64,000 nt of DNA from Mobula hypostoma (lineage: Eukaryota). Shown here in pieces: positions 15,175 to 58,163 of this stretch. The stretch is taken from NCBI RefSeq assembly GCF_963921235.1, contig NC_086097.1, positions 107,758,001 through 107,822,000 of the forward strand, in the 5' to 3' direction. Below the pieces are notes generated by a model that worked only from the letters and a program-made list of their open reading frames with translations, did no database searches and was not told where the DNA came from. The stretch's first letter is position 1; each line of letters opens with the position of its first letter. The position numbers and the translations under genes are program-made.

Positions 15175-15307
15175 AAAAACGAGAGAAAATATGCAGATGC
15201 TGGAAATCCAAGCAACACACACAAAATGCTGGAGGAACTCAGAAGGCCAGGCAGTATCCATGGAAAAAATTACAGTCGACGTTTCGGACCAAAACCCTTT
15301 GGCAGGG
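15175..15307 (-). mobile_element. Penelope pLTR 3' fragment inserted in CR1
   Basis: Interrupts the CR1 SPGPDGV motif; carries GAAACGTCGACT with a mutated CUGA box (CTGCCAA). Confidence 0.8.
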
Positions 15308-16169
15308 TTGAAGAGTTTGAAGAGGCATTAGTAATGACCCTTCAAGAATCACTAGATCCTGGAATGGTTCCAAAAGACTGAAAAATTGAAAATGTCACTC
15401 CACCCTTCAAGGAAGAGAGGCAGGAGAAAGGAAATTTTAGGCCAGTTAGTTGGGAAGATGTTGGAGTTGAAGGATGAGGTCTCAGGGTACTTGGACACAC
15501 ATGATAAAATAGGCCATAGTCAGCATGGTTTCCTCAAGGGAAAATCTTGCCTGACAGATCTGTTGGAATTCTTTGAATAAATAACAAGCAGGATAGACAA
15601 AGGAGAATTGTTTGATGTTGTGTACTTCGATTTTCAGAAGGCCTTTGACGAGGTGCCACACATGAGGCTGTTAAAAAATCTACAAGCCCATGGTATTACA
15701 GGAATATTTCTAGCATGGATAAAGCAGTGTCTGACTGGCAGGAGGCAAAGAGTGTTTTTTTCTGGTTGACTGTCGGTGACAGGTGGTGTTCCACAGGGGT
15801 CTGTGTTGGGACCAATTCTTCTTACATTATATATCAATGATTTGGATGATGGAATTGATGGTTTTGTTGCAATATTGCAGACAATATGAAGATAGGTGGG
15901 GGGGCAGGGAGTTTTGATGAAGTAGAGAGGGTACAGCAGGACTTGGACAGACTAGAATGGGCAAAGAAATGACAGATGGAATACACTGTTGGGAAATGTA
16001 TAATCATGCACTTCGGTAGAAAGAATGAAAGGGTTGGCTATTTTCTAAATGGAAAGAAAATACAAAAAACTAAGATGCAAAGGGACTTGGGAGTCCTTAT
16101 GCAGGATTCCCGAAAGGTTAATTTGCAAGTTGAGTTTGCGGTGAGGAAGGCAAATGTGATGTTTGCATT

Positions 16170-24454: not shown

Positions 24455-25222
24455 CACAGCAACAACCTTGCACTCTATGTCAGGAAGATCAAAGAACTGA
24501 TTGTGGACTTCGGGAAGGGTAAGACGAGGGAACACACACCAGTCCTCATCTCTATGATCAGAAACGGAAAATGTGAGCAATCTCAAGTTTCTGGGCATCA
24601 ATAACTCTGAGGATCTATCCTGGATCCAGCATAACGATACTGCTACAAAGAAGCCATGACTATATTTCATTAGGAGTTTGAGATTTGATATGTCACCAAA
24701 GACACTCACAAATTTCTACAGATGTACTGTGGAGAGCATGCTAACTGGCTGCATCACCATCTTGAATGGTGGGGGTGGGGGGCTACTGCCCAGGATCAAA
24801 ATATACTGCAGAGATTTGTAAAATTAGTCAGCTCCGTCATGGGCATTAGCCTCTATCCATACTATCTAGAACATTTTCAAGGAGTAATGCCTCAAAAAGG
24901 TGGCATCCATCATTAAGGACCCCCATCACCCAGGACACCCCCTGCTCTCATTGCTACCAGCAGGAAGGAGGTACAGGAGCCTGAAGGCGCACACTCAACG
25001 ATTCAGGAACAACTTCTTCCCCTCTGCCATCCAATTTCTGAATGGACATGGAACCCTTGAACACTACCTCACTTTCTTAAAATATTCAGTTTTACCCTAG
25101 TTATTTATTTAATATAAATATACTTACTGTAATTGACAGTTTTTTATCATGCATTGCACTGTTCCTGCAAAGACAACAAATTTCATGACATATCCTGGTG
25201 ATATTAAACCTGATCTGATTCT
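24455..25222 (+). mobile_element. Rex1/Babar-like LINE 3' fragment
   Basis: KELIVDF...ASIIKDPHHPGHPLLSLLPAGRRYRSLKAHTQRFRNNFFPSAI; ATTAAACCTGATCTGATTCTG tail. Confidence 0.88.
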
Positions 25223-25879
25223 GCTGTGTATTTTATAGGCAGTACACATTGCAGCTATTGTGTACTGTTACAGAATGAACAAACGTTTATGGTGGTGGAT
25301 GGGACAGCCGATCAAGTGGGTTGCTTTATCCTAGATGGATTCATCTTGGAGCCGCACAACTGTGGTCAAATCTTTATTTTCCATCACATGCATCCCTTAA
25401 GGATGGTGGAAAGAGGGCAGCAGGTGAGTCACTTGCCGTAGCATACCCAGACACTAGTAGCCATGATATTGTAGTGACAGGTCAAGTTGAATGTGGTCAA
25501 TGGTGGCCCTCAGAATGCTGATGGTGATGGCAATATCAATGGTAGGTGAGTAAGTGACACTTATCAGCCCACTCTTCCTTTTGCTTAGACTTTACTGCAT
25601 GCAGACATATATTGCTTCATTTGTTGAAGAGTTGCAAATGAAAATAAACCAAGTCATCTCACTTCTGATGGTACGATGGAGGCTAGGTCATTGACAAAGC
25701 AGCTGTATATCGTTGGCCTGCAGAAAGGCAATGATGCCTTGGGGCTGAGATTACTAACATCAACAACCAAAAACCTTAGTGAAAAGGATGAGTCCAACCA
25801 TTGAAGGCTTTCCCTTTGATCTCCATTTTCAGTTTTACCACTCTTTGTCATCTGCTGCCTTGATTTAAATGGTAGTTAT

Positions 25880-26482
25880 GCATACAAAATGCTGGAAGAA
25901 CTCAGCATGAGAGACAGCATCTATGGAAAAGAATAAACAGTCGATGTTTCAGCAGCGACCCTTCTTCAGGACCGAGAAGGAAGGAGTTAAGATGCCAGAA
26001 CAAAAAGGTGGGGGGAGGAGAAAGAGGCTAGCTGGGAGGTGATAGGTGAAGCCAGGTGGGTGGGCAAGGTCAAGGGCTGAAGAAGAAAGAATCTGATAGG
26101 AAAGGAGAGTGGACCATAAGAGAAAGGGAAGGCTGAATGGACCAGGGGCAAGTTAAAGCCAGGTGAGAAGATGTAAAAAGTCAGAGTGGGAAATAGTGGG
26201 GGGGGGGGGGTAATTTTTTTTGACTGGAAGCAGAAATTGAAATTCATGCCATCAGGCTGTAAGCTATCCAGACCAAATATAAGGTTTTGCACCTTCATCT
26301 TGAGGGTGGCATTATCTTGACATAAGAAGAGGCCATATTGGTTAGTCCTGAAGAAGGATCTCGGCCTGAAACATCGACTGTTCATTCATTTCCATGGATG
26401 CTGCCTGACCTGTTGAGATCCTCCAGCATTTTGTGCATGTTGCCTTAGACTTCCTGCATCTGCAGACTTTCTTGTGTTTATG
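25880..26482. mobile_element. Penelope-derived inverted-repeat element (about 0.6 kb)
   Basis: Minus-strand pLTR plus GIY-YIG tail (FGLDSLQPDGMNFNF), then plus-strand pLTR end; TSD AAATGGTAGTTA / AAATGGTACTTA (25867-25878, 26483-26494). Confidence 0.85.
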
Positions 26483-26984
26483 AAATGGTACTTACTTCCA
26501 TTTACCACTGGAATTCAACTGTTGGTAGATGTTTACCCAAAAGACAGAGCTGAAGCCCGGAGCAGAATGCTCCTGTAAATCAGACTGGGCATCAGTGAAC
26601 ACACTATTTATAAGTTAGGTAATTCTTGATGGCACTGCTGATTATAACTGTAGCACTTTGCTAATGATTGATAGCAGACTGATTCTTTAGTAATTAGTTG
26701 AAATGGATTTGCCCTGCTGTTTGTGAATAAAACACAATGGAATAATTTCCACATTTTCAAGCAGCTATCAATGTTCTAACCGTAGTGGAACAGCTTAAAC
26801 AGAGTTGCAGCTACGCTGGAGAACAGGTTCTCAAGTTCATGTTTAAGTTCAGTTTATTGCAATTCAATACATGTATACCACCAAATGAAACAATGTTCCT
26901 CCAGACCAAGGTGCACACCACTGTACAGATAACTAACACACATATCACCTAAAGTACTATTAACACTAGTTATGAGCATGACAT

Positions 26985-27525
26985 TATTACAGCTCAGGGC
27001 ATCGGAATTCTGACGTCACCTGTAAGGAGTTTGTACATCCTCCCTGTGGAATGTGTAGGTTTGCTCCAGGTGCTCCAGTTTCCTGCCATAGTTCAAAAAT
27101 GCAATGATTAGTAGGCTAATGGGTAATTGTAAATTGTCCCGTGATTAAAGTAAAGGCATCCGTTAGTCTTGCGAGACCATGGATCTGCTCCTGAAAAGTC
27201 TTCACTCTCCAGGGCGCAGGCCTGGGCAAGGTTGTATGGAAGACCAGCAGTTGCCCATGCTGCAAGTCTCCCCTCTCCACGACACCAATGTTGTCCGAGG
27301 GAAGGGCATTAGGACCCATACAGCTTGGCACCAGTGTCATCGCAGAGCAATGTGTGATTAAGTGCCTTGCTCAGGGACACAACACGTTCCCTCGGCTGGG
27401 GCTCGAACTCACGACCTTCAGGTCACTAGTCCTATGCCTTAATCAATTGGCCACATCCCGTGATTAGGCTGGGGTTAAATCAGGGGTTACAGGGCCTATT
27501 CTACCCAGTACCTCTGAATAAAAAT
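26985..27525 (+). mobile_element. V-SINE (HE1-like), lying inside a minus-strand LINE 3' end (about 26830-27770)
   Basis: TGTAAGGAGTTTGTACATCCTCCCTGTG...GGTGCTCCAGTTTCCT V-domain; A-rich tail. Confidence 0.7.
27148..27455 (-). mobile_element. tRNA-headed CORE SINE with RTE-like tail
   Basis: A box TGGCCAATTGA, B box GTTCGAGCC, CORE-like GTTGTGTCCCTGAGCAAGGCACTTAA; perfect TSD TCCCGTGATTA (27137-27147, 27456-27466). Confidence 0.85.
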
Positions 27526-27774
27526 AAAATAAATTAACAAATAATAAAGTGCATTTACGACTCAAGTTAAAACAATATACCACTAGCACTTTGTGGGTGA
27601 TGAAGTCTGAGTGGTGGCAGGACATTCAGCAGTCTTACGGCTTGGGGAAAGAAGCTGTTTCTCATCCTAACAGTCCTTGTCTGAATGCTACGCTACCGCC
27701 TGCCTGATGATAGGGAGGTCAAAGAGATTCTTCGACGTATGGGAGGGATTATTGACAATGCTAAAGGCCCTGTC

Positions 27775-28475
27775 AATGGTGCAAATGGACTTGGGAGTCC
27801 TTGTGCAGGATTCCCTAAAGATTAACTTGCAGGTTGAGTCAGTGGCAAGGAAGGCAAATGCAATGTTAGCATTCATTTCAAGAGGACTAGAATATAAAAG
27901 CAAGGTTGTCGTGCTGAGCCTTTGTTGGTCAGACTGCAGTTGGTGTATTGTGTGCAGTTCTGAGCTCCTTATCTAAGCAAAGAAATGCTGGCATTGGAGA
28001 GGGTCCAGAGGATGTTCACAAGAATGATTCCGGGAATGAAATGCTTAAGATATAAGGAGCATTTGATTGCTCTGGGCCTGTAGTTGCTGGAGTTCAGAAG
28101 AATAAAGGGAGGATTTCATTGAACCCTCTCAAATATTGAAAGGCTTAGATAGACTGGATGTGGAGAGGAGTCTAGGAGCAAAGGGTACAACCTCAGAATA
28201 GTGGGATGTTCCTTTAAAACAGAAATGAGGAGCAATTGCTTTAGCCAGAGGGTGATGAATCTGCAGAATTCATTGCCACAGATGTTGTAGAAACCAAGTC
28301 ATTGGCCATATTTAAAACAGAGTTTGATATGTTCTTGATTAATTAGGGCACTAAAGGTTACAGAGAGAAGGGAGGAGAATCAGGTTGAGAGGGATAACAA
28401 ATCAGCCATGATGGAATGGCGGTGGCGACTCCATGGGCATAATAGCTAATTCTGCTCCTATGTCTGACGGTCTTA
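27775..28475 (+). mobile_element. CR1 3' fragment
   Basis: VQMDLGVLVQDSLKINLQVES...KANAMLAFISRGLEYKS. Confidence 0.88.
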
Positions 28476-28569
28476 CAGTGGTTTGATGATGAACTTCAAT
28501 AAAAAATAAATTTTTAAAAAAGAGAGTTCAATCAATATCTGACCTCCCACAGCCTTGCTTACTATCCCT

Positions 28570-28750
28570 AATAGTCAACATTTTGGGCTGAGGCCCTTTG
28601 ACAGGACACTATCCTGTCCTGCCAAAGGGTCTCGACCCAAATCGTTGACTGTACATTTTCCATGGATGCTGCCTGGCCTGCTGAGTTCCTCCAGCATTCT
28701 GTATGTGTTGCTTTGGATCTCCAGCATCTGTAGATTTTCTCCTGTTTCTG
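28570..28750. mobile_element. Penelope pLTR fragment with back-to-back decayed hammerheads
   Basis: Inverted pair 28572-28606 (-) and 28616-28651 (+), followed by the pLTR 3' end. Confidence 0.7.
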
Positions 28751-29545
28751 GCTACTTTCCATGTTCTTCTCCTTGGTGATGCAAAGTACTCACTTAGTAA
28801 CTCGCATACATCCTGTGGCTCCAAGCATAAATTCACTCCTTTGCTCTTGAGTGGTTCTACTCTCTCCCAAGTTACCCTACTGCTTTTAATCTATGCATCA
28901 AATAACTTGGGAATCTTTTAAATCCCGCTTACCAAGAACTTTCCATGGCCCTCCTGATTCCATTTAAATTCTCTCCTTATATTCCTCAAAGGCCCTGCCC
29001 AATTTCACCTTCCGGTTTCTTACATATGCTTCCCTTTTCTTTGTAATTGTCCTTTCCCCAATTTAGCAATTTACCACATGGTCCAATCTTATCCATATCC
29101 CTAAATGACTTCTCAAAATGCTTTCCCAGCAAAACTCCAGTCACCTGTTAATTAACCACAATCTGTGTCAAAAGACATCCTAGATGCACTTAACACATTT
29201 TGCCCCTATCTAAGTCTCTGGCACTATGGGATTCCTGATCAATACTGGGGAAAATTAACATCATCCATTACAAGAAATATATTGCTTTTATATTTTTCCA
29301 TAATCTGCCAACAAATCCATTCCTCTACCTCCCACTGGTTATTGGGAGAACTATAGATTAACCCTATCATAGTGATTGCACCTTTCTTATTCCTGAGGTG
29401 AACCCATATGACCTCACTGGATGAGACTTCCAGGATGTCCTCTCTGGGTGTAACTGTTAACATTTTCGCTGATTAGTAATGCAACTCCCCCACCTCTTCT
29501 ACATCCCTGTCTACTGTGTCTGAAACTCCTGAATCCTGAAACTTT
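28750..29545 (-). mobile_element. Deleted, degenerate CR1 endonuclease region
   Basis: REDILEVSSSEVIWVHLRNKKGAIT...DDVNFP. Confidence 0.75.
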
Positions 29546-32500
29546 AAAGATTACAGATTATCTTTATTTGCCACATGTACGTTGAAACATACAGTGAACT
29601 ACATCATTTTCTATCAGGTCAAATCAAATCAGTGAGGATTGTGCTGAGGGAAGCCCGCAACAGTTGCCACACTTCTGGCACCATCGCAGCGTGCCCACAA
29701 CTTACTAACCCTAACCTGTACATCTTTGGACTGTGGGAGGAAACCAGAGCACCAGGAGGAAAATCACATGGTCATGGAGAGAACGTTCAAACTCCTTACA
29801 GACAGTGGCAGTAATCAAACCCCGGTCACTGATTCAGGAGCCTGATGGTTGATGTTCTGAACCAGGACCTTGAGAGATAGTGCCCGACCAACTCAGTTCC
29901 TCCAGCAGTTTGTTCTGTGCTCCAGGTAGCAGCATCTATAATTTCTCCCGTCTTTACTTCAGTGGCTGGGCGTCATCACAGCACCACCAGGGATTCTGCA
30001 TGTTTCTAGATTACAAGATAAGCCATCTGTCATCCAGTACAGGTCAATATGGGCACAGGCAACAGCAGCAGCAGCACGATCTGGCCTATTTGATGGAGTA
30101 TCAAATTAAATGTACCCCTTATTTCCAGAATTAATACCATTTCCCTCATCCTTTAGTTATGTGTCCTATTTAACAGCTGCATAAATATTATAAACTAACT
30201 AACCTAATGATATCACAAAAGCAAAACTCTGCAGACTCTGGAAATCTGAAACAAAAAAAATGCTGGAAGACTCAGCAGAGCAAGTGGCAGCAGTGGCAGG
30301 AAAACAAGAACAGATGTATCAGAAAAGGATCCTTCATCAGACCTAGAATGTGAGAAAAAAAATGTTTTGAGTTGTAGCAAGGAGAATCAGAATCAGGTTT
30401 AATATCACCAGCACATGTTGTGAAATTTGTTAACTTAGCAGCAGCAGTACAATGCAATACATAATAATATAGAAAAAAATTAGCAAATCAATTACAGTAA
30501 ATATATATACATATTAAATAGTTAGATTAAAAATAGTGCAACAGAAGAGGGGAACAGGCTGTTCCTGAATCACTGTGTGTGTGTCTTCAGGCTTCTGTAT
30601 CTCCTTCCAGATGGTAGCAATGAGAAGAGGGCATATCCTGGGTCACGCCACCTCTCTAAGGCACCGCTCCTTGAAGATGTCTTGCATACTGAAGAAGCAA
30701 GTACCGAGATGGAGCTGACTAATTTTACAACTTTCTGTAGCTTCTTTCGATCCTGTGCAGCAGCACCCCCCGCCCCACCATACCAGAAAGCCTGTCAGAA
30801 CACTCTTGACCGTATACTGTAGAAGTTTTTGAGTGTTTTAGGTCACAAACCAAATCTCCTCAAACTCCTAATGAAATATAGGCACTGTCTTGTCTTCTTT
30901 ATAGCTGCATCGATACGTTGGGATCAGGTTAGATCCTGAGATATTGAATTGAATTGAATTGACTTTATTTCTTACATCCTTCACATACATGAGGAGTAAA
31001 AATCTTTACATTACATCTCCATCGAAATGTGCAACGTGCAATCATAGTGATTTATAATGAATAGAACAGTCAATGTAACATAGAATACACTCAAATCAGC
31101 GTGAGTTCATCAGTCTGATGGCCTGGTGGAAGAAGCTGTCCTGGAGCCTGTTGGACCCGGCTTTTATGCTGCGGTACCGCTTCCTGGATGGTAGCAGCTG
31201 GAATAGATTGTGGTTGGGATGGCTTGGGTCCCCAGTGACCCTTTTTACACACCTGTCCTCGTAAATGTCCTGAATCATGGGAAGTTCACAACTACAGATG
31301 TGCTGGGCTGTCTGCGCCACCCTCTGCAGAGTCCTGTGATTAAGGGAGGTACCGTTCCCATACCAGGCAGTGATGCAGTCAGTCAGGATGCTCTCATTTG
31401 TGCCCCTGTAGAAGGTTCTTGGGGCCCACACCAAACTTCCTCAACCATCTGAAGTGAAGGAGGCACGGTTGTGCCTTTTTCACCACACAGCTGGTGTGTA
31501 CAGACCACGTGAGGTCCTCGGTGATGTGCATGCTGAGGAACTTGAAGCTGTTTACCCTCTCAACCCCAGATCCATTGATCCTCCTGTAATCCACAATCAG
31601 CTCCTTTGTTTTTGCAACATTGAGAGAGATGTTGTTTTCTTGACACCACTGTGTCATAGAGATCTTCCTTCTAGGCCATCTTGTTATTGTCTGAGATAAG
31701 GCCAATCAATGTAGTTTTGTCAGCAAATTTATTTAACAGATTGGAGCTGTGTGTGGCAATACAGTCATGGTATACAGCAGTGGTCCCCAACCACCGGGCC
31801 GCAAAGCATGTGCTACCAGGCCGCGAGGAAACGATATGATTTGGCGATATGAGTCAGCTGCACCTTTCCTCATTCCCTGTCACGCCCACTGTTGAACTTG
31901 AACACACGCGAGGTCATTACTCACACGCCATCCATGTCAGCACGGGAAGAAGATCAACTCCTCAAGCATGCAAATGATGACGGGCTGAAAAGTATGTTCG
32001 ATATAACATCTCTGCCGGCATTCTGGATCAAAGTCAAGACTAAATATCCTGAGATAGCCACGAAAGCACTGAAAATGTTGCTTCCATTTCCAACATATCT
32101 CTGCGAAGCGGGGTTTTCTGCAATGAATGCAACGAAAACTAAATTGCGGAATAGACTGGACATAAGGAACCCCCTTCGAGTATTACTGTCTCCCATTACC
32201 CCTCGATAGGACTGTCTTGTTGCAGGAAAACAAGGCCAGAGCTCCCACTGATTCAGCAATATTGGTGTATTGCAATGATTTTATATGTTCATATGATGAA
32301 AATATGTGCTGTGTGTTTAATATCCAAACGTTACTTAAAATGTTATGATGCTATTGACTTATAAGTGACTTATAATTGAATTATCACTGTATTCATGTGA
32401 TGCACTGTGTGACTAATATTAAATTCGTTAGATAAACCCTTTTAGAAACGAAATTGAGTGTATTAGCCACTTATAAGTGACTTATAGTTGACTTATCACC

Positions 32501-32925
32501 TATATTCCAGTCATGATTAACACCCCACCCCCACTAGGGTTGCCAACTGTCCCGTATTAGCCAGGACATCCAGTATATTGGGCTAAATTTGTTTGTCCCA
32601 TACGGGACCGCCTTTGTCCCATCTTTCCCCTGCTAAGGTAGAGCATACCTATGAAATCTTTCATACCAAAATGGCATAAAGCAAAGAAACAATTACCATT
32701 AATTTATATGAGAAAAATTTTTGAGCGTTCCCAGACCCAAAAAATAACCTACCAAATCATACCAAATAACACATAAAAGCTAAAATAACACTAACATATA
32801 GTAAAAGCTGGAATGATATGATAAATACACAGCCTATATAGAGTAGAAATAATGTATGTACAGCAACACACATCAAAGTTGCTGGTTAACGCAGCAGGCC
32901 AGGCAGCATCTCTAGGAAGAGGTAC

Positions 32926-32961
32926 AGTCGACGTTTCAGGCCGAGACCCTTCGTCAGGACT
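32926..32961 (-). ncRNA. Minimal type I hammerhead ribozyme, intact core
   Basis: AGUC-CUGACGA-AGGGUCUCGGCCU-GAAA-CGUC/GACU: stem I AGUC:GACU, stem II AGG:CCU, palindromic ACGU stem III, GUC cleavage triplet. Confidence 0.85.
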
Positions 32962-34543
32962 AACTGAAGGAAGAGCTAGTAAGAGATTTGAAAGTGGGAG
33001 GGGGAGGGGGAGATCCAAAATGATAGGAGAAGACAGCAGGGGGAAGGATGGAGCCAAGAGCTGGACAGGTGATTGGCAAAAGGGATATGAGAGGAACATG
33101 GGACAGAAGGCCCAAGGAGAAGGAAAAGGGGGAGGGGGGGGAATCCAGAGGATGGGCAAGGGGTATAGTCAGAGGGACAAGGGGGAGAAAAAGGAGAGTG
33201 AGAGAAAGAATGTGTGTATATAAATAACGGATGGGGTACAAGGAGGTGGGGCATTAGTGGAAGTTAGAGAAGTCAATGTTCATGCCATCAGGTTGGAGGC
33301 TACCCAGACGGAATATAAGGTGTTGATCCTCCAACCTGAGTCATTTTTACATCTTTACCTTCATCTTTATAGTAGAGGAGGCCGTGGATAGACATGTCAG
33401 AATGGGAATGGGATGTGCAATTAAAATGTGTGGCCACTGGGAGATCCTGCTTTCTCTGGCAGACAGAGCGTAGGTGTTCAGCAAAGCGGTCTCCCAGTCT
33501 GCGTTGGGTCTCACCAATATATAGAAGGCCACATTGGGAGCACCAGATGCAGTACATCACCCCAGCCGACTCACAGGTGAAGTGTCGCCTCACCTGGAGG
33601 GACTGTCTGGGGCCCTGAATGGTGGTAAGGGAGGAAGTGTAAGGGCATGTGTAGCACTTGTTCCGCTTACAAGGATAAGGGCCAGGAGGGAGATCAATGG
33701 GGAGGGATGGGGGAGACGAATGGACAAGGGAGTCGCGTAGGGAGCGATCCCTGCAGAAAGCAGAGAGGGGGGAGGGAAAGATGTGCTTAGTGGTGGGATC
33801 CAATTGGAGGTGGCGCAAGTTACGGAGAATAATATGTTGGACCCAGAGCCTGGTGGGGTGGTAGGTGAGGACCAGGGGAACCCTATCCCTGGTGGGGTGG
33901 CGGGAGGATGGAGTGAGAGCAGATGTGCGTGAAATGGGGGAGATGCGTTTGAGAGCAGAGTTGATGGTGGAGGAAGGGAAGCCCCTTTCTTTAAAAAAGG
34001 AGGACATCTCCCTCGTCCTGGAATGAAAAGCCTCATCGAGGGAGAATACCTACGCTCTGTCCGCCAGAGAAAGTAGGATCTCCCAGTGGCCACACATTTT
34101 AATTCCACATCCCATTCCCATTCTAACATGTCTATCCACGGCCTCCTCTACTGTAAAGATGAAGCCACACTCAGCTTGGAGGAACAACATCTTATATTCC
34201 ATCTGGGTAGCCTCCAACCTGATGGCATGAACATTGACTTCTCTAACTTCCGTTAATGCCCCACTTCACCCTTGTACCCCATCCATTATTTATATACACA
34301 TATTCTATCTCTCACTCTCCTTTTTCTCCCTCTGTCCCTCTGACTATACCCCTTGCCCATCCTCTAGGTTCTCCCCCCTTTCCTTCTTCCTGGGCCCCCT
34401 GTCCCATGATCCTCTCATATCCCTTTTGCCAATCACCTGTCCAGCTCTTGGCTCCATCCCTCCCCCTCCTGTCTTATCCTATCATTTTGGATCTCCCCCT
34501 CTCCCTCTCACTTTCAAATCTCTTACTAGCTCTTTCTTCAGTT

Positions 34544-34579
34544 AGTCCTGACGAAGGGTCTCTGCCTGAAACGTCAACT
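34544..34579 (+). ncRNA. Hammerhead copy, stem I mismatch
   Basis: AGUC-CUGACGA-AGGGUCUCUGCCU-GAAA-CGUC/AACU. Confidence 0.7.
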
Positions 34580-35408
34580 GTACCTCTTCCTAGAGATACT
34601 GCCTGGCCTACTGTGTTCACCAGCAACTTTGATGTCTGTTGCTTGAATTTCCAGCATCTGCAGAATTCCTCGTGTTAATGTATGTACAGTGTAGTTTCAC
34701 TGGACAAAATTGCCAAAACTGATTTGTAGAAAAAAAATTGGCATGTACACGCATGCATACGGCATGTATGTGCATGGGACGCATGCGCACACAGGTGCCC
34801 ACACAAGGCTTCATGGTCATGGTAGTCTTTCTCGGGGTAAACACAGTGAGAAAGTGAGCAACCCTACCCACCCCCCCCACCCCCTAGTCTGCTGGTCCAC
34901 AAGAATATTGTCAATATTCAACCAGTCCGTAGTGCAAAAAAGGTTGGGGACCCCTGGCATACAGGGAGTAAAGGAGGGGACTCAGTACGCAGCACTGAGG
35001 GGCTCCTGTATTGAGTGACAGACGGGTGGAGGTGAGGGAGGCCACTCTTACCATCTTCTGGCAATCTGACAGGAAGTCCAGGATCCAGCTGCACAAGGCA
35101 GGGTCAAGGCCGAGGTCTCGGAGCTTCCTGTTGAGCCTGGATGGAATTATGGTGTTGAATGCTGAACTGTAGTCCAAGAACAGTATTCTCACATAGGCAT
35201 CCTTCTTCTCCAGATTTGTAAGGATGGTATGTAGAGCAGTGGCTATTGCATCATCTGTCGATTGGTTATGTTGGTAGGGGAAATGTAGGGGGTCCAGTGT
35301 GGGTGGTAGCAAGCTGCAGATGTAGTCCTTGACCAGCTTCTCAAAGCATTTGCTTATTATTGAGGTGAGTGTGACAGGACGCCAGTCGTTCAGGCAGGTT
35401 ACCTCGGT

Positions 35409-37824
35409 AAGTGGCGTATCTAAGGTATGGCACGTTTCCTGGGTGCCACTTGAAGGGGGGGGGCGCCACTGAGCAGTTTCTATTAAAGTCAGACAAGCCA
35501 TCCTCGGATAGTGAAAAAATAATTTTCTTTAGATGTATGATCTGTCTTTGATCATCATGGGTGAGAAGCACTAGGATGACCTTACTTCAGAGCATTGTGT
35601 AAGAAGACCATGAAATGTTTCTTCACGAAGAAGAAGGAAAGTGGGGCTCAAGGACCGAAGAGACAAAAGTTGGAGGCGGAGGAAGCCAAGAAGTTGAGCA
35701 AGTTCTTCATGCCTTTCTTTGAAAAGCCTGGAACAAGTAGTCTGACACGTTCCATGGAGTCGCCTGCACCTGCTACAAGTTTGTTAGAATCCGAAGGTGG
35801 ATCAAGTACAAATGCGTTACAAGCCGAGGAGGAAATCAAGTCAGATTAATCCGAGTATATTGAGATTAAGAGTGAGGCTGCCACAGAGAACGTGGACATG
35901 ACAGGAGGGGAAGACGATGGTGGTGGTGGTGATGTTGAGTTTATCGACGAGATTTTACCTGACAACACTGAACCTCGTGAACTGGATGGTGTCAAAGAGC
36001 CTCGAACTGTCATATCAGAAGTGATTGAACAGCATGACATTGGACTTCTGAAGTTCCACAAGGATACTGGAAAAGCAATTCTGCCTGACACGTTGAGAAC
36101 AGAAATAATAAAGCTGGGTTTGAAGTATTTCCAGAACAATGAGGTGCTTTTCCTACTAACAAATAACTGCTCAATGAACAAAAATTGGTTCAAGAGGAAA
36201 TTGGGAAATGGTCGTGGTGAGGAGGTGACTCGCTCCTGGCTGGTCTATTCCACTTCTAAAATGTCTGCATTTTGTATCTGTTGTCTTCTCTATTCCCAGT
36301 CAGACCATCAATCCTCATTGGAGCAGGAAAGTGGATTCAACCAGTGGAAAGCACCTGAAAGGATTAGTGTTCATGAAAATGCCAAGAATCATCGGGAATG
36401 CTTCACACAGTGGAAAGAAATTTAGCTGGAAACAGAGGAGTTATTGACGCGGTATTTCAGTCACAGATTGAGAAGGAAAAGCAGAAGTGGCGTGATATCT
36501 TGACAAGAATCCTTCACTGCATAAAATTCCTTGCAAATCAGAACCTGGCTTTGCGAGGACACAGGGAGTCACTTCAGCTAGACAATGACTCCAGTGTGGG
36601 AAATTTCCTTGGCTTACTGAAACTACTGGCCATCTTTGACCCTGTCATAAAAGAACACCTCACTCATTTGGAAAGTCATCCTGGATCCACGTCTTATCTT
36701 TCACCAGGTCTCCAGAACGAATTCATCCACATGATGGCATCCACTGTTCGCCAGAGTTTATTGAGAAGCATTCGTAAAGCCAAGTATTATGGTCTCATGT
36801 TCGACTCGACTCCTGATCAGGCACATCGTGAGCAGATGTCAGTAGTGAGGTATGTGGAAGTTAATTTTGAGAGGAAAACAGTCTGTGTTAGAGAGTCCTT
36901 CCTTGATTTTATCTAGATAAACCAGAAGGATGCTGAGAGCTTGGTTGAAGACATCTTGAAACAGCTAGAGAAGGATGAAATGGAGCTACAAGATTGTCAG
37001 TCACAGTGCTATGACAACGCTGCTGTGATGGCTGGACACAGAAGTGGTGTTCATCAAAGAATAAGAGAGAAAAGCAACCTGGCAGTGTTTGTGAATTACG
37101 ACAATCACTCACTCAACTTGGTGAGTGTACATGCAGCCAAGCAGGATACAATGATGGTCACGTTTTTTGGAACCATCGACACTGACGCCAAGTTTGGGTT
37201 CCTTCTCGATGTCGAGGACTGTGTCATGCGCTGACAGTAACAACCTAAAGAAGAAGTGCAAAAATTTGGGTGAATTCTACAGCTCTGATGTTGATGGACA
37301 CCAGCTATATGAAGAAATTTTGGATTGCAGAATGTTGCTATCAAGGCGGGTCAACATGAAAATATGAAGACCTGAAGAGCTTCTTGAATTTATTGTTCAG
37401 TATGGAGATGAGAGCGTCTTCCCCAATCTTTGCATTGCTATTCAGATAATGCTAACCATCACAGTTTCTGTTGCCAGCTGTGAGAGATCATTCAGCAAGT
37501 TAAAACTAATACTTTCGTATTTGAGAGCCTCCATGGGTCAAGGCAGACTCTGTGATCTTGCTCTGCTGAGTGTAGAAAGAGAAGAAACTGAAAAAACTGA
37601 CTTTGATCATATCATAGACCAATTTGCATCAGTGAAAGCAAGGAAGGTGTAGTTATAATTTTCATGTAGTGCCATAATTTGTTAATTAAAAGATTAACGA
37701 GCTTGACTTGCATTTTTGAGCTCATATTATGGTAAAGTTATCTGAAAGATGGGTGTCAGATGTTTGGACAGGGGTGCAATTTCAGTGCTTGCCATAGGCG
37801 CTATTTTCCGTAGATACGCCCCTG
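35409..37824 (+). mobile_element. hAT (Tip100/Zaphod-like) transposon with fragmented transposase
   Basis: TIRs AGTGGCGTATCTA / TAGATACGCCCCTG; 8-bp TSD ACCTCGGT / ACCTTAGT; TTF-type zinc finger (RSWLVYS...FCICCLL), NLALRGH, FDSTPD, YDNAAVMAG, SVASCERSFSKLK; internal deletion near 37170. Confidence 0.93.
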
Positions 37825-38232
37825 ACCTTAGTCTTTTTTGGTACAGGGACAATGGTAGATAATTTGAAGCAGGAAGGCACTCTACACTGGGAGAGGGAGA
37901 GATTTAAAATGTAAGCACACCTGCCAATTGTGCTGCACACATCCTAAGTACTGGGATGCTGTCTGGTCCCGCAGCCTTGCGGCTGTCCACTCATTGGAAA
38001 CATCTGCATACTTCAGCCTCAGAGATGACCAGGTTGCAGGTTGTAGCGGTGGCTTTCCTCGGAGGCTCAGAGGCTCAAGATTTAAAATTGCTCACTCTCT
38101 CCACTTCTGATCCCTCTATAAGAATTGGTTCATGTTCCCTTGTCTTACCCTTCCTGAAGTCCACAGTCAGCTTTCTAGTCTTACTGATGTTGAGTGCGAG
38201 GTTGTTGCTGCGACACCACTCAAATAGCTGGT

Positions 38233-38555
38233 ATACAAGGGGTGATTAATAAGTTTGTGGCCTAAGGTAGAAGATGAGTTATACAGCTCTCGTTACATGC
38301 ACACTCAGTCCAACATATTGAGTGATTATGCAGAAAGTTTGAAGTTGATAACTCATCATCTTCTATCTTAGGCCACAAACTTATCAATCACCCTTGCTGT
38401 GGACAGTTTCTGGAGGACCAAGATCCGTATGCTCCACGACCGCTAGACTAAGTGTGTAAATGTAGGAGGGGACTATGTTGAAAAATAAATGTGCTAGGTT
38501 TTCTAAGATTGACTCCTTCTACCTTAGGTCATGAACTTATCAATAACGCCTCCTA
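38233..38555 (+). mobile_element. Mariner-derived MITE
   Basis: TIR TACAAGGGGTGATTAATAAGTTTGTGGCCTAAGGTAGAAG and its reverse complements; transposase C-terminus LHDR*TKCVNVGGDYVEK*. Confidence 0.85.
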
Positions 38556-39879
38556 TCTCATCTCCATCTGAGATTCTACCAACAATGGTTGTATCATAAG
38601 CAAATTTCTAGGCAGCATTTGAACTATACCAAGCCACACAGTAATGGGTATAGAGAGAGTTGAGCAGCGGGCTAAGCACACACCCAAGGTGTGTCAGTGC
38701 TGATCATCGGTGAAGAGGAGATATTACTACCAATCTGCACAAATTGTGGTCTTGCTGTTAGGAAGTCAAGGATCCAATTGCAGAGGGAGATACAGTGGTC
38801 CAGGTTCTGTAGCTTGTTGATCAGGATCATGGGAACTGTAACTATAAACACTGAGCTATAGTCAACAAATAGCATCGTCACTTAGGTGTTTGTATTGTCC
38901 AGGTGATCTAAGGCCGTGTGAAGAGCCATTGAGATTGCATCTGCAATAGACCTATTGTGGCGATAGGCAAATTGCAGTGGGTCAAGGTCCTTGCTGAGGC
39001 ATGAGTGATTCTAGCCTTAATCAACCTCTCAAAGCATTTCATCACCATACATGTGAGTGCTACTGGACGACAGTCATTAAGGCAGCTCACACCATTCTTC
39101 TTTGGCACTTGTTAAAGCCCTTTTGAAGCAGGTGAGAACTTCCAACCACAGCAGTGAGAGGTTGAAAATGTCCTTGAATACTCCCGCCAGTTGGTTGGCA
39201 CAAGTTTTCAGAGCCTTACCAGGTACTCCAATAGGGTCTGCCACCTTGCGAGGGTTCACCCTCCTGAAAGACAGCCTGACATCGGCCTCTGAGACAGAGA
39301 TCACAGTGTCACTGGGTGCAGCAGGGATCCTCACAGCTGCGAAGCGGGCATAGACAGCGTTGAATTTATCTGGTAGTGAAGTATCGCTGCCATTCATGCT
39401 ATTGGGTTTCGCTTTGTAGGAAGTAATGTTTTGCAAACCCTGTCAGAGTTGATGTGCATCCATTGTTGTCACCAACCTCACTTGGAATAGCTTCTTCACT
39501 CTCGAAATAGCCCTCCACAAGTCATACCTGGTTTTCCTGCACAGTCCTGGGTCACCAGCCCGAAATTCCACAGATCTAGCCCTCAGCAAACAAACAACCT
39601 CCTAGTTCATCCACGGTTTTTGGTTTGTTATAAGTTCTATGCTCTATTTGAAACAAGCAATAGTCACCTGGGGTCTATCTTCATCCATCTTTGCCCCAAC
39701 TTAATCAGTTTCAAGCATGACATGATGTTGAACTTTTCTTCTGCTGCCTTTATCTTCATGTCCATTGTCTTGGCCAGGGGACCTCATCGCAGACCGTGGG
39801 ATCTTCTTCCTGTCTACAAAACTTCTAATCCAGCTGGAAAGCTCATTTCAAATTCTTTCCTTCTCTGGATCTGTACATA

Positions 39880-40988
39880 AAGGGTGGATGCAGGTGGGGG
39901 AGGGGAAGAAGGGTAATGGAGAATGGTGGGGAGGGGGATTTGAAAAGAAGGAGTGAGTGAGAGGACCTGGGTAATGAGAGGGAGAAAGAAACCAGCAGAG
40001 TGCAGGTTATGCGTAACTGGGGAATTCACTCAAACACGAGGAAATCTGCAGATGCTGGAAATTCAAGCAACACACACAAAATGCTGGTGCAACACAGCAG
40101 GCCAGGCAGCATCCATAGGAAGAAGCACAGTCGACGTTTCAGGCCAAAACTCTTCATCAGGACTAACGAAGGGTCTCATCCTGAAACGTCGACTGTGCTT
40201 CTTCCTATGGATGCTGCCTGGTCTGCTGCGTTCCACCAGCATTTTGTGTGTGTTGGAGAATTCACTGTTCATGCCATTGGGTTATAAACTACTCAGGCAG
40301 AATATGAGCTGAAGTTCCTCTAGTTTAGCGTTCAGCTTCAGCCAGGCAGTGGGGCAGTGGAGGAAGCCAAGAACAGTCTGGTTGCTGCTGGACTGGGGAA
40401 GGAAGGGCAAATAACATGCTATCAGAAGCTCAGGATAGCATCTGTGGACAGAGCCCAGATGTTCAGCAAAGCAGTTGCCTAGCCTACACTCAATCTTGCC
40501 GATGCAGATGAGGCCACATCGGGAACGCCAAATGAAATAAATGAGATTGGAGGAGCTACATGTGAATCTCTGCCTTTTCAGTCATCCTTACAGTATCTAG
40601 TTTATTTACCCTCCTTCACCTGGTCCCAGCTGCTTATCATCCACACTGAGTCCAATTCGCTTCCTTTGTCTTCCTACCCCTCCCCGCAACCCCCCCCCCA
40701 CACTATTTCCATCTGCCTAGCATCGCTCCCTAATCTGGTTCCAATCAGCACCTTCCATTTTTAACAGATTTCATAATCTGTAGCCCTCTGTTGTCTCCAC
40801 CAATCACCTACAACTCTCACTCCATGTGCCCATCAACCCTTCCTCACCTAGATGCACCTATCACTTGATAGCTCTTGCCTTATGCCTCTCCACCATATAT
40901 TTATATTGGCTATTCCTCCTTTACATTCAGACCTTTACAGATGCTGCCTGACATGCAGTTACAAATTCTCCAAATCCCAGCATCTGCA
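39880..40988. mobile_element. Old Penelope inverted-pLTR remnant hosting a younger miniature copy
   Basis: Purine-rich arm and GIY-YIG remnant (about 39880-40575, -); pyrimidine-rich arm ending CCAGCATCTGCA (+). Confidence 0.65.
40031..40254. mobile_element. Miniature Penelope hairpin element (about 225 bp) with hammerhead
   Basis: Arms 40068-40143 / 40180-40254; TSD GGGGAATTCACT / GGAGAATTCACT; hammerhead core at 40129-40164 (-). Confidence 0.88.
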
Positions 40989-42640
40989 TAAGATATAGGA
41001 GCAAAATTGAGCCACTTGGGCCATCAAGTCTGTTCTGCCATTCAATCATGGCTGATTCTTTTGATCCCATTCTCCCACCTTCTCCCCATAACCATGAAGG
41101 CCCTTACTAATCAAGAACCTATCAATCTCTGCCTTAAATATACCCAACTAGCTCCATGGCTTCTGTGGCAATGAATTCCACAGATTCACATTTTGGCTGA
41201 AGGAATTTCTCTTCACCACGGTTTTGAAAGGGAAGTCCCTTAATTCTGGGGTTGTACCTGAAAATCCTAAACTTTCTTACTAATGGAAACATCCTTTCCA
41301 CATCCACTCTATCCAGGTCTTTCAGTATTCCAGAAGTTTCAATGAGATTCCCCTTCATCCTTCTGAACTTTTATCAAAGTACAGGCCCAGGGCCATGAAA
41401 CACTCCTCATATGTTAAGCCTTTCATTCCTGGAATCATCCTTGTGAATCTCCTCTGGAAGCTCTCCAAGGCCAGCACGTTGTTCCTAAGATATATGCTCC
41501 AAAATTTCTCAACGGTACTCCAAATGAGGTCTGACCAATGTCTTATAAAGCCTCAACATGCTTTAATACATATGTTTATATTCTGGATCTCTCAAACTGA
41601 ATGATAACAGTACATTTGCTTTCATTGCTACCAACTTAGCTTGCAAGTTAACATTGAGGGAATCCTGCATGAGGACTGCCAACTCTTCTTTTCCTTTCCT
41701 ACTTGTGAATTTTTCTCCATTTAGAAAATGGTATACACCCTTATTCATTTACATCTACCACTTTTTTGCCCAATTGCCCAACCTGTCCAGGTCCTTCTGC
41801 AGATTCCCCGCCTCTGCGACACTTCTTGTCCCTCCAACTATCTTGGTATTGTCTGCAACTATGGCCACAATGTTATCAAATTCTCCATCCAGATCAGTAA
41901 TATATAACATGAAAAGAAGCGGTCCCAACACTGACCTCTGCAGAACCTCACTAATCACTGGCAGCCATTTTGAAAAGAACCCCCTTTACCCAACTCTCTA
42001 ACTTTCGCCAGTCAACCAATCTTCTAACCATGCTAATAGTACCTTGCCTCTAACATCATGGGCTTGTATTTTGTTTAGTAACCTTGGTTGTGGCACCTAG
42101 TCAAAGGCTTTCTGAAAATTCAAGTAAATAACGTCCAGTTATCCAGTTAGCCTTTGTCTAACCAGCTTGTTACCTCCCAAGAACTCTAACAGGTTTGTCA
42201 GACAAGATCCCCCCTTAACAAAAGTGTGCTGACTTTGTCCTATCTTATCATATGCAATCAAGTGCTCTGAAATTTCATCCTTAATAATGGACTCTCTTAC
42301 CAACCACTGAGGTCAGACTAACTGCTTATAAATTCCTGTGTTTTGCTTCCCTCCCTTATCTAACACATTTGCAATTTTCCAGACTGCTGAAACCTTCCTT
42401 GACTCCAGTGATTCTTGAATGATCACTGCTAAAGTCTACCCAATCTGTCCAGCTATCTCTTTCAGAATTCTAAGGTGTAGACTGTGTGATCCAGGCGATT
42501 TATCCATCTTCAGGACTTTCAACATCCCCAGCACCTTCTCCTTAGTAATATTCACCTCTCAACTTTTACCTTTGTTTCTTGACTCTCTTAAATCTTTGGC
42601 CTGTTACCGTCACTGTGAAGACTGACACTAAGTACTTCCT
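40988..42640 (-). mobile_element. Degenerate CR1 RT and 3' end
   Basis: SVLGPLLFMLYITDLD...VADNTKI. Confidence 0.88.
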
Positions 42641-42699
42641 GCTACTTTATTGGTACTTATTAAACACTGTTCCACCCTCTTCTTTGCTAGGGAGAGCAA

Positions 42700-43855: not shown

Positions 43856-44959
43856 AATTGATAAACTTCTCTCTCGTCTTACTGAACTTATTTCTTTCTA
43901 CCCTGAAACTAAATAAGTAAGAAGTCTGCAACCATTTCAAACTATTAGTGGAAACCTTTGCATCAATAAACATTGGCAATGTGCTTCAATCCCAGGGTTG
44001 TCATACGGAGGCATATAGCATTTTATTATTAAAAGCAGGGTGATAGAAGTTCAAACGTTAAACTTTCAGTAATTTCAGTACTGGAATTTCGTCCCTGGAT
44101 ACAATTGTGAAATTGTGCCTAACATATACCTGAAGATGTCTCTCGAAGGTGTATATGCATTCATGTTTTCACACACACAATTTAGTATCACCTTTAATTG
44201 TAGAACGCACATTAATCAGAGAAATCAATATCGATAATTGAAAGAAAATCTGGAAAAGAGTCAAAGAAATTTCCAACCGCTTGTTGAGAATAAACCCAGA
44301 TAAACAAAATCCCTTTTAGATGGATCCTGGACACTGCAAGGAAAGCAGCAGTTTTCTCCACCCTCAAAACTTAAATATATTTGTGTAAATAACTGTCTTG
44401 AGACAATGAACTCTCTCCAATATTTCTTTATTGCAAATGATTGACCACCCATACTCCAAGGCAAGGCTACCCAAAAGACGGTTGTCCATTTGGTTCAGAA
44501 ACACGATTACCTCGATATCAGTATTAGTCACATCAAAATCACTGTATCCTCGGAAACATAGCTCTTGGCCAGGGAACTAAGCTGTCACAACTACTAAGAT
44601 AGACAACTATTTTTGTATAAATTATAATGGTCTGATTAGTTCAGAAAATGCCAAGAAAGCTAGGAAACTTTCTACAGTGACCAATCTTATCGTTAGACCT
44701 GGGTGACAGGAACAAAGAAGCCAACCCATCATTCCTGCAGACAGGTAACAAATTAACGCAAAACACATTAATCATTTATTTTTTCCTTTTTGTGGTAACA
44801 GAATGTGTGTAATGCATATGAAAAGTTGCAAATCTAAACCTTATACATATTAAACAAAACAGAATGCCACTTTAAACTTAAGGGAAACTGCTAATCAGTT
44901 ACAGCAGTTCTTTCATTTGCCTGTATTGCATTTCTCAAAGACTTTCACACAATGTTTCA

Positions 44960-45890
44960 GGAGGCAAAATCTTCTGTTAGTTGTGTTGAGTTGTCCTCTG
45001 ATCTTGGCAATTTACTTGCAAATGTTTCATCACTGTACAAGGAGACATCATCAGTGCGCTGTTAATTGCGATGTGTTCTCTGAATGCTCGGCCTTTATAT
45101 ACTTACCAATCTGCTGACTGGATCTTTACCGAGCAAAGCTATTGAACAAGACCAATGTGGACTATAAAATCCAGTGCAGGGACTGCAGCAAATATTACAT
45201 CAGCCCAACTGGGAGAAAGCTATCCACAAGGATCCATGAATATCAATTGGCTGCAAAGAGCTAGCTCTTCCTTCAGTTAGTCCTGACGAAGGGTCTCGGC
45301 CCGAAATGTCAACTGTACCTCTTCCTAGAGATGCTGCCTGGCCTGCTGCGTTCACCAGCAACTTCGATGTGTGTTGCTTGAATTTCCAGCATCTGCAGAA
45401 TTCCTCGTGTTTACGTTTTTAAACTCTGCAGATGCTGGAAATCCAAAGCAACACACACAAAATGCTGAAGGAACTCAGTAGGCCAGGTAGTACCTATGGA
45501 AAGGAGTGAACACTTGATGTTTCAGGCCGAGACCCTTGTGTGTTGCTTAGAACTCCCAGAAGCATGGTTTTCCACAAACAATTCTGTCAACAGACATGTA
45601 GATCTCAATCCTATTTATGAGCCAATATAGACAAAATTCCAGACTATAATGCACAAAGTTTGCCACGTAACCATTCAGCAATGAGACTTCCTCCCTACAT
45701 CACAATTGAGTTTCCATAAAGCTGACCAGTCAGCTGATTGGTAAGTACATAAAGGCCAACACATCACAATTAACAGCGTACTCACGATGTCTCCTCATAT
45801 GGTGATGGAATGTTTGCAAATACATTTGTAAATTGCCAAGATTGGAAACCCAACCATCAACCAGCCGAGCTACCCATTCTTGTTTACCTT
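44960..45890. mobile_element. Second Penelope family with inverted pLTR; family-1 pLTR pair inserted at about 45258-45552
   Basis: KTNVDYKIQCRDCSKYYISPTGRKLSTRIHEYQL (GIY-YIG, +); inverted repeat about 45003-45121 vs 45726-45840. Confidence 0.8.
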
Positions 45891-45913
45891 ATCCAGTGTC
45901 TCTACACACTTAC

Positions 45914-46196
45914 ATGCTTGAAAATGCCATCTTCATCAACATGCGGCAACATTTACAGATCCTTAATTATGATATTCTTCTTCAGATGCTGGAGAAACCA
46001 ATGGACATGGCCTAATACTGAGGCGAAGTTACCGACTCTCCTGCTTGACTCTCTTTTTATTTATAATTTTTTTAAGCTGTCTGACGACATCAGTGGGATT
46101 TTTGTAGATCATCCGTCTGTCTGCCTCTTTAATTTTGATCCATTTGACCAAGGGATAATTCTGTGCACTGAATCGTTGCTGAAACTGGAACATGAC
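45914..46196 (-). pseudogene. Candidate exon B
   Basis: Acceptor tttactacAG; open frame VMFQFQQRFSAQNYPLVKWIKIKEADRRMIYKNPTDVVRQLKKIINKKRVKQESR*; donors at 46032 (GTAACT) or 45913 (CAT|GTAAGT). Confidence 0.6.
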
Positions 46197-58066: not shown

Positions 58067-58163
58067 CTTGTTCAGAGAATCAGGAAGCAGTTCATCATAA
58101 AGTTCTCCTGTGATCATCGTTACAGAAGTTGCACTGGACAGAGGTTTAAACTGTGAAATGTCT
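58067..58163 (-). pseudogene. Candidate exon A (97 nt, open frame, GC donor)
   Basis: Acceptor tttttctcttttattgcAG; donor AAG|GCAAGT; DISQFKPLSSATSVTMITGELYDELLPDSLNK. Confidence 0.65.

What the first reader, a model, noticed from the sequence alone, without database searches (positions are those of the whole stretch)
32926..32961. Intact minimal type I hammerhead ribozyme in the Penelope pLTR, dispersed in about ten copies
Seen: AGUC-CUGACGA-(AGG GUCUCGG CCU)-GAAA-CGUC/GACU has every conserved core nucleotide. Related copies lie at about 620, 15274, 25939, 26344, 28572, 28616, 34544, 40129 and 45279, mostly damaged at CpG positions. Established: Penelope-like elements carry minimal type I hammerheads with a palindromic stem III that are thought to cleave as dimers. 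Inference: at this density the genome holds very many hammerheads, and the intact copy here is sense to the candidate minus-strand gene, so it could cut that pre-mRNA.
Basis: partly seen in the sequence, partly recalled or inferred. Interest (0 to 1): 0.7.

Follow-up and report, generated by a model that had tools for sequence, protein, structure and literature searches.

The report
Penelope hammerhead beyond a gene's end
The 36-base motif is a real, sequence-intact copy of a known kind of tiny self-cutting-RNA motif carried by a broken Penelope-like jumping gene in a ray-like genome, but it lies about 11.5 kb past the neighbouring gene's apparent RNA end and is predicted to be paired shut by its own mirror copy, so it likely does nothing to that gene.

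Summary
The motif is there (- strand 32961-32926; predicted cut 32930|32929) and is not chance. It has the anatomy of the minimal hammerheads (min-HHR) published for Penelope-like elements (PLEs): core, one extra A, CG in place of helix III, 4-bp helix I. It lies in the pLTR of a dead, 5'-truncated, two-armed PLE insertion (32864-34675) with a GIY-YIG remnant, a Neptune/Nematis-type Cys linker, a one-sided 34-nt tail and a 14-bp target duplication. The window holds 13 recognisable copies; 6 keep the core, 2 pass a full descriptor. The host-gene inference is not supported: the minus-strand gene (an alpha/beta hydrolase) stops at 46029, and RNA-like contigs from two studies end at 44412/44413, 15 nt after an AATAAA, 11.5 kb before the motif. 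In read-through RNA, 35 of its 36 bases are predicted to pair with the inverted arm, which is transcribed first. Alone it is predicted to fold into an inactive rod, and helix II closes with G-U rather than the usual G-C. Cleavage was not tested. The scan has noted this same family many times elsewhere in this genome. Ordinary: a new member of a known kind.

The parts
32926..32961 (-). Minimal type-I hammerhead motif: helix I 5' 32961-32958; CUGACGA 32957-32951; extra A 32950; helix II 32949-32938 (closing G-U, CUCG loop); GAAA 32937-32934; CG 32933-32932; UC 32931-32930; predicted cut 32930|32929; helix I 3' 32929-32926
32864..34046 (-). Long arm of the PLE insertion: end of the ORF (linker and GIY-YIG) plus pLTR, 3' end without tail at 32864; inner boundary approximate
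32864..33260 (-). pLTR / 3' non-coding part after the endonuclease stop (approximate 5' limit)
33300..34049 (-). Broken ORF remnant with CX4CX2C linker, GIY-YIG and Cys/His motif; frameshifted near its end; no RT left
   Evidence: Pfam PF01541 E 0.0037, below curated cut-off; 31 homologues, 75% identity to a Hypanus protein, many with PF00078 RT; motifs
34044..34675 (+). Short inverted arm (EN C-terminus plus pLTR); 41 mismatches and 24 gap columns against the long arm over 619 columns; its hammerhead copy 34544-34579 has lost the helix I closing pair
34642..34675 (+). 34-nt tail present on this arm only
32850..32863 (+). Left 14-bp target-site duplication
   Evidence: word occurs only twice in the window
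34676..34689 (+). Right 14-bp target-site duplication
40129..40164 (-). Second descriptor-complete copy (helix II 3 of 4 pairs), in a short fold-back insertion about 40031-40257 whose other arm (40159-40194 +) starts inside the core; 9-nt flanking repeat
45279..45314 (+). Copy in the host gene's 3' UTR, antisense to the gene; core kept, G10.1-C11.1, but palindrome and helix I closing pair lost; insertion starts 18 nt before helix I
45512..45547 (-). Older copy in the 3' UTR, sense to the gene, core CUGANGA absent
26344..26379 (+). Copy with core kept and palindrome lost; right arm of an older two-armed insertion whose left arm carries the 25973-25939 (-) copy
28573..28650 (.). Decayed fold-back pair (28608-28573 -, 28615-28650 +), core broken in both
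15274..15309 (-). Decayed copy, core broken (also 621-656 + and 12973-12938 -)
58067..58163 (-). Penultimate coding exon of the host gene (alpha/beta hydrolase, PF00561; named si:dkey-122a22.2-like in one hit), GC donor
44412..46196 (-). Last exon of the host gene: coding to stop at 46031-46029, 3' UTR to about 44412, AATAAA at 44432-44427

Best explanation
This is a sequence-intact minimal hammerhead motif in the pLTR of a broken, two-armed Penelope-like insertion, and it is likely a silent passenger at this locus, lying 11.5 kb past the neighbouring gene's apparent RNA end and predicted to be paired shut by the element's own inverted arm. Shown here: motif, element anatomy (GIY-YIG remnant, inverted arm, one-sided tail, 14-bp duplication), position relative to the gene. 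From the literature: such motifs sit in PLE pLTRs, lack helix III, and cleave weakly and only when two copies share the ACGU helix. Inferred for the family: in a full element or tandem array two same-strand pLTR motifs would pair as a double hammerhead to trim element RNA from longer transcripts. Inferred for this insertion: a staggered 14-nt cut gave two 3' ends, each priming reverse transcription near the 3' end of an uncut element RNA at one of two sites 34 nt apart; both cDNAs stopped early and were joined head to head. Copies that span the cut site must come from uncut (or re-ligated) RNA. Intactness needs no selection: at about 3.5% drift per arm, a 36-nt stretch stays unchanged roughly a quarter to a third of the time.
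For: Motif anatomy matches the description in PMC4209133 (extra nucleotide between 9 and 10.1, palindromic 15.2-16.2, helix I of 4-5 bp). Element anatomy matches PMC8557442 (inverted 5'-truncated copy, one-sided 30-40-bp tail, CX2-5CxxC linker). The motif class is general: in 97 distinct metagenome matches to a core-only pattern, 92 have non-G at 17 and 61 have 3 or more helix I pairs against a mean of 12.5 (maximum 23 in 1000 shuffles), neither specified by the pattern. Gene end at 44412/44413 in two studies. Masking of 35 of 36 bases. Monomer minimum-energy fold pairs the core GACG with CGUC (-10.0 kcal/mol, 51% of ensemble, z -0.37); active double hammerhead -9.5 against -20.0 for two rods. 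PMC4209133: monomer inactive, dimers weak. PMC11167929: both target strands are cut and extended, two RT start sites define the tail, HHR mutants do not affect insertion in vitro, no RNA-seq reads end at the site. Arm divergence 41 of 595 columns; 2 differences in the 36-nt motif is not unusual (p 0.26-0.63).
Against: No cleavage assay and no raw reads: contigs cannot show RNA ends or strand, and the runs are only guessed to be RNA; the tool rates the two-study stop as a weak hint, here strengthened by the AATAAA and by contigs that leave the window at the splice acceptor. Longer 3' isoforms or polymerase read-through over 11.5 kb are not excluded. Folding energies omit the non-canonical core pairs and proteins, so they understate the active form. 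A short RNA started inside this pLTR would lack the masking arm. The motif equals the column majority of the window copies at all 36 positions, which is also what selection would give.
Confidence: 0.88

Rival explanations
1. One reading: the intact sense copy cuts the minus-strand gene's pre-mRNA, or its read-through RNA as a termination aid.
For: Same strand as the gene; core and helix I complete; polymerase II runs past poly(A) sites (established knowledge, recalled).
Against: 11.5 kb past the apparent poly(A) site and 13.1 kb past the stop; predicted masking by an arm transcribed first; the nearest same-strand descriptor-complete partner is 7.2 kb away, inside its own fold-back and with a helix II mismatch; weak activity of this class even as dimers.
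Confidence: 0.03
2. This pLTR still makes a short RNA from its own promoter, free of the masking arm, which dimerises in trans with other pLTR RNAs and cleaves; harmless turnover of repeat RNA.
For: pLTRs hold promoters in other PLEs (passage in PMC6765202); contigs of this family are present in all four RNA-like runs laid; helix I and the ACGU palindrome are the same in many copies.
Against: No locus-specific transcript seen; laid contigs come from the whole family. The trans dimer rests on a 4-bp helix III and two 4-bp helices I and is predicted far less stable than the alternatives (-9.5 against -28.3 kcal/mol). G10.1-U11.1 is the minority form (6 of 97 metagenome matches).
Confidence: 0.06
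3. In this ray family the motif no longer cleaves at all and is kept as a structural landmark, for example marking the RNA's 5' end or an RT-binding site.
For: Every copy that spans the site came from uncut RNA (inference); inner junctions of several insertions fall at the foot of helix I (26341, 40167, 28608/28615, 45261); U11.1 in 8 of 13 copies; HHR mutants did not affect insertion in vitro for an anole PLE.
Against: The catalytic core is conserved across distant animals together with helix I complementarity, and the anole motif does cleave in vitro. The junction clustering rests on a handful of copies, and older subfamilies may only seem to start there. This rival concerns the family, and is compatible with the best explanation for this locus.
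Confidence: 0.25

Closest known systems
Minimal hammerheads (min-HHR) in pLTRs of metazoan PLEs, incl. fish Xena/Poseidon/Neptune (Cervera and de la Pena 2014, PMC4209133; abstract, results, discussion and start of methods read)
   Same: Type-I topology, full core, extra nucleotide before helix II, no loop 3 with palindromic CG, helix I of 4 bp, pLTR location, mostly solitary copies from truncated elements, nearby pairs on opposite strands.
   Different: Helix II is 4 bp and closes with G-U in this copy instead of G10.1-C11.1; host is a ray, a group not named in the parts I read (supplements not seen).
EN+ PLEs of the Neptune/Nematis type (PMC8557442; passages read)
   Same: C-terminal GIY-YIG, CX2-5CxxC linker, inverted 5'-truncated arm, one-sided tail of 30-40 bp, hammerhead in pLTR.
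   Different: RT is missing from this copy, so Neptune versus Nematis was not resolved by phylogeny.
PAc, Poseidon element of Anolis (PMC11167929; passages read)
   Same: Hammerhead close to the RT start sites; two ends differing by a tail; geometry fits extension from both target strands.
   Different: Other clade (Poseidon lacks the Cys linker per PMC8557442); PAc was tested biochemically, this family was not.
Non-LTR retrozymes (bioRxiv 10.64898/2026.07.22.740005; first part and passages read)
   Same: Type-I hammerhead of PLE pLTR origin; reported in one chondrichthyan genome.
   Different: Retrozymes are tandem head-to-tail units each with a hammerhead; this is a head-to-head insertion with coding remnant and one motif per strand.
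Domesticated vertebrate hammerheads (RECK intron, rodent Clec2 3' UTR; figure legend in PMC6155905)
   Same: Hammerhead core near a vertebrate gene.
   Different: Those lie inside the transcript and are drawn with tertiary contacts; this is a multi-copy transposon part outside the mapped transcript.

Membership tests
min-HHR of metazoan PLEs | Core CUGANGA, GAAA, UH | tested here: met
   All 11 invariant positions and C17 present
min-HHR of metazoan PLEs | Type-I topology with short helix I (4-5 bp) | tested here: met
   AGUC/GACU, 4 contiguous pairs
min-HHR of metazoan PLEs | No loop 3; palindromic 15.2-16.2 so that helix III forms only in a dimer | tested here: met
   A15.1-C-G-U16.1
min-HHR of metazoan PLEs | Unpaired nucleotide between 9 and 10.1 | tested here: met
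   A in 13 of 13 window copies; this register is the lower-energy one
min-HHR of metazoan PLEs | Helix II closed by G10.1 pairing with 11.1, usually C (described as highly conserved, not as part of the descriptor) | tested here: inconclusive
   Pairs, but as G-U in this copy; C in 5 and U in 8 of 13 window copies; C in 91 of 97 metagenome matches. C11.1-G12 is a CpG, so decay is a likely source
min-HHR of metazoan PLEs | Located in a PLE pLTR | tested here: met
   About 300 nt downstream of the GIY-YIG stop, 62 nt from the element's 3' end
min-HHR of metazoan PLEs | Self-cleavage as a dimer | not testable with these tools
   Only folding energies; needs in vitro assay
EN+ PLE, Neptune/Nematis type | C-terminal GIY-YIG endonuclease with Cys/His motif | tested here: met
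   PF01541 E 0.0037, below cut-off; homologues E 5e-104 to 3e-28, many carrying PF00078 upstream; sequence
EN+ PLE, Neptune/Nematis type | CX2-5CxxC linker before the GIY-YIG motif | tested here: met
   CKRNKCYTC in the window, same motif in 5 of 5 homologues inspected
EN+ PLE, Neptune/Nematis type | Telomerase-like RT and clade placement by RT phylogeny | not tested
   RT absent from this truncated copy; no genome held
EN+ PLE, Neptune/Nematis type | pLTR, inverted truncated arm, one-sided 30-40-bp tail | tested here: met
   34-nt tail on one arm, 14-bp duplication
Rfam hammerhead families | Score at gathering threshold | tested here: not met
   0 matches in the window; no hammerhead family at E up to 10 in 32700-33200
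Non-LTR retrozyme | At least two consecutive head-to-tail units, each with a complete hammerhead | tested here: not met
   The partner copy is inverted and 1.6 kb away; the next same-strand complete copy is 7.2 kb away in a separate insertion
Domesticated intronic or UTR hammerhead | Lies within the host transcript on the sense strand | tested here: not met
   11.5 kb beyond the apparent 3' end
Domesticated intronic or UTR hammerhead | Orthologous conservation above neutral | not tested
   No orthologous loci available; arm-to-arm comparison shows no excess

The most novel reading that the evidence does not exclude
Abundant short pLTR RNAs of this family act as trans partners that complete the double hammerhead on lone sense copies in nascent host RNA, so that a ray genome carries a very large, transposon-derived set of conditional RNA cut sites that shape termination and intron turnover; this copy would act on read-through RNA of the hydrolase gene.
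Probability: 0.03. Interest if true: 0.7.

Novelty: new member of a known kind. Interest (0 to 1): 0.12.

Why it matters
As found, little: it extends a known association (PLE pLTRs carry minimal hammerheads) to a ray family and gives a clean example of a two-armed insertion with tail and target duplication. The role of PLE hammerheads in vivo is an open question (PMC4209133, PMC11167929), and a very abundant family could help test it with RNA-end sequencing, but this particular copy is a poor test case for host effects because it lies outside the gene and is predicted to be masked.

Tried and rejected
Whole genome: none held, so no genome-wide count, consensus or orientation test. Rfam at gathering and at E up to 10: no hammerhead match. 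Sequencing runs: no RNA holder on record; 18 of 24 rows are guessed RNA. Laying four runs on 24000-43999 was swamped by repeats and showed no exon joints or locus-specific ends; absence of cover there is not used as evidence. Other exon candidates: 14 short ORFs gave no Pfam family at cut-off; the 25657-25875 ORF had no homologue; tblastn of five host-protein relatives found only two strong exons; I did not exclude a second, unrecognised gene over 32.9 kb. The 32-aa exon gave nothing in solved structures and four uninformative hits among cluster representatives. Splice-acceptor idea: a pyrimidine run and CAG end 2 nt before helix I, as the D. virilis intron does, but it scores 2.1 against 11.3 for the true exon and 4.7% of all AG sites score as well (scoring weights are recalled approximations; my score for the last exon used a wrong position and is void) - kept only as a lead. 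Selection on the motif: not shown. Lunse et al. (PMC5785218) is not held; its dimer result is taken from the review PMC6765202 (passages). Literature searches for hammerhead + Penelope + shark (1 paper, 'shark' only in the ribozyme's name) and + elasmobranch (0 papers) found no description of this family, within an open-licence library and without supplements; one search added nothing relevant (listing only).

Full report
Observation. The motif is present as described. On the minus strand 32961-32926 reads AGUC CUGACGA A GGGU CUCG GCCU GAAA CG UC GACU, with the predicted cut between 32930 and 32929. A 28-nt pattern with up to three mismatches has 6 matches in the window and none in 100 shuffles. 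Six of 13 keep the invariant core; two of 13 also keep the CG palindrome and the closing pair of helix I. In the nine named copies 20 of 38 substitutions are CpG transitions, with CpG in 9 of 31 columns. Rfam has no match.

[quoted passage not shown] The closing pair is then G-U. Five of 13 window copies have C there, as do 91 of 97 distinct metagenome matches to a core-only pattern that allowed either base (the scan stopped at 8 of 64 parts). In that set 92 of 97 have non-G at position 17 and 61 of 97 have at least three helix I pairs against a shuffled mean of 12.5, so the motif class is real and widespread; 7 of 123 loci also show the endonuclease C-terminus within their 300-nt flanks.

The element. 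The motif lies 62 nt from the 3' end of a long arm (- strand, about 34046 to 32864) that carries the end of an ORF with a CX4CX2C linker and a GIY-YIG domain (Pfam E 0.0037, below cut-off; 31 homologues, the best 75% identical from a stingray, many with an RT domain; motifs). A short arm (+ strand, 34044-34675) repeats the 3' 600 nt in the opposite direction and alone carries a 34-nt tail; a 14-bp duplication flanks the whole (32850-32863, 34676-34689). Inverted truncated arms, a one-sided 30-40-bp tail and the Cys linker are described for Neptune/Nematis-type PLEs (PMC8557442, passages). Three further two-armed insertions in the window (about 25.9-26.5, 28.6-28.7 and 40.0-40.3 kb) have the tail on one arm. 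Both outer ends are 3' ends of the element, which fits priming from both target strands at two sites on an uncut RNA, as shown in vitro for an anole PLE (PMC11167929, passages); I took this reading from earlier scan notes and checked only the geometry here. The arms differ at 41 of 595 aligned columns, so each has drifted about 3.5%; an unchanged 36-mer is then expected about a quarter to a third of the time, and the two motifs differing at 2 of 36 shows no excess conservation.

The host gene. The best minus-strand exon candidate (58163-58067, GC donor) matches an alpha/beta hydrolase (PF00561) of rays at 82-97% identity. tblastn places its last coding exon at 46196-46029; earlier exons were not found in the window. 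Contigs from two RNA-like runs of different studies leave the window at that acceptor, cover the 3' UTR at even depth (one with no difference in 611 nt) and stop at 44412 and 44413, 15 nt after AATAAA at 44432-44427; a DNA-like run continues beyond; a third RNA-like run at lower depth stops earlier, at 44680. Contigs cannot prove an RNA end, but the agreement with the signal is good. The motif is 11.5 kb past this point, so it is not in an intron or UTR of the mapped transcript. Inside the UTR, the pLTR copy with a core is antisense and the sense copy has no core.

Would it cut? Not tested. The 36-mer alone is predicted to form a rod in which core GACG pairs with CGUC (51% of the ensemble, z -0.37), and with flanks neither helix I nor II appears in the best fold. 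A two-strand double hammerhead scores -9.5 kcal/mol against -20.0 for two rods and -28.3 for the best co-fold; these energies leave out the non-canonical core. In minus-strand read-through RNA the antisense arm is made first, and 35 of 36 motif bases pair with it. Published data agree: a min-HHR monomer did not cleave and dimers cleaved weakly; a review reports very low rates even as dimers (PMC6765202, passages); the anole motif cleaves in vitro but is dispensable for insertion, and no RNA-seq reads ended at its site.

Verdict. Observation confirmed; class assignment right; host-gene role not supported. Works like, and is filed as, a min-HHR of a Neptune/Nematis-type PLE, with catalysis untested and the G-U closing pair as the one departure. 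My searches found no paper on this motif in sharks or rays, but a 2026 preprint reports hammerhead retrozymes in one chondrichthyan genome, and supplements were not seen. The scan has recorded the same family at many other places in this genome, with copy numbers of 50,000-100,000 that I could not check. Interest 0.12.

Noticed in passing
window 44412-46029 (-), 3' UTR of the hydrolase gene: The UTR holds nested inverted repeats (45001-45121 with 45726-45842; 45289-45537 pLTR pair). RNA-like runs show more T>C than A>G on the + strand (X1 14 to 5, X4 21 to 4, X9 19 to 12; DNA-like X19 31 to 27), as A-to-I editing of a minus-strand hairpin would give. Repeat reads and species differences confound it; needs DNA of the same animal.
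   Followed up: partly
window 26341, 28608/28615, 40163-40172, 45261: Inner (5') junctions of several insertions fall within about 20 nt of the foot of helix I rather than at the cut site, as earlier scan notes report genome-wide; few copies here.
   Followed up: partly
window 32986-32964 (-): Pyrimidine run ending in CAG 2 nt before helix I; older copies (12973, 25973) also have a pyrimidine run there. Recalls the intron end at helix I in D. virilis Penelope; score weak.
   Followed up: partly
window 58067|58066 (-): The last intron of the hydrolase gene (11.9 kb) has a GC donor with an otherwise strong consensus.
   Followed up: partly
window 31853-32206 (+) and flanks to about 34930: The PLE appears to sit in a DNA-transposon remnant; weak match to the hAT dimerisation domain (E 0.077, below cut-off).
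   Followed up: no
window 35850-37234 (+): Broken transposase-like ORFs with DUF4371 (E 1.6e-12), covered by low-depth family contigs in four RNA-like runs.
   Followed up: no
window 19776-22795 (+), 2467-5744 (-), 52180-54580: Long, nearly open endonuclease and RT reading frames of LINE-like elements; CR1- and Rex/RTE-like by recall, not searched.
   Followed up: no
L005/L006 (one 6020-nt metagenome contig); L040, L047: Hammerhead matches on opposite strands of one contig, 2.5 kb apart or about 50 nt apart, suggesting the same two-armed and fold-back insertions in other animals.
   Followed up: no
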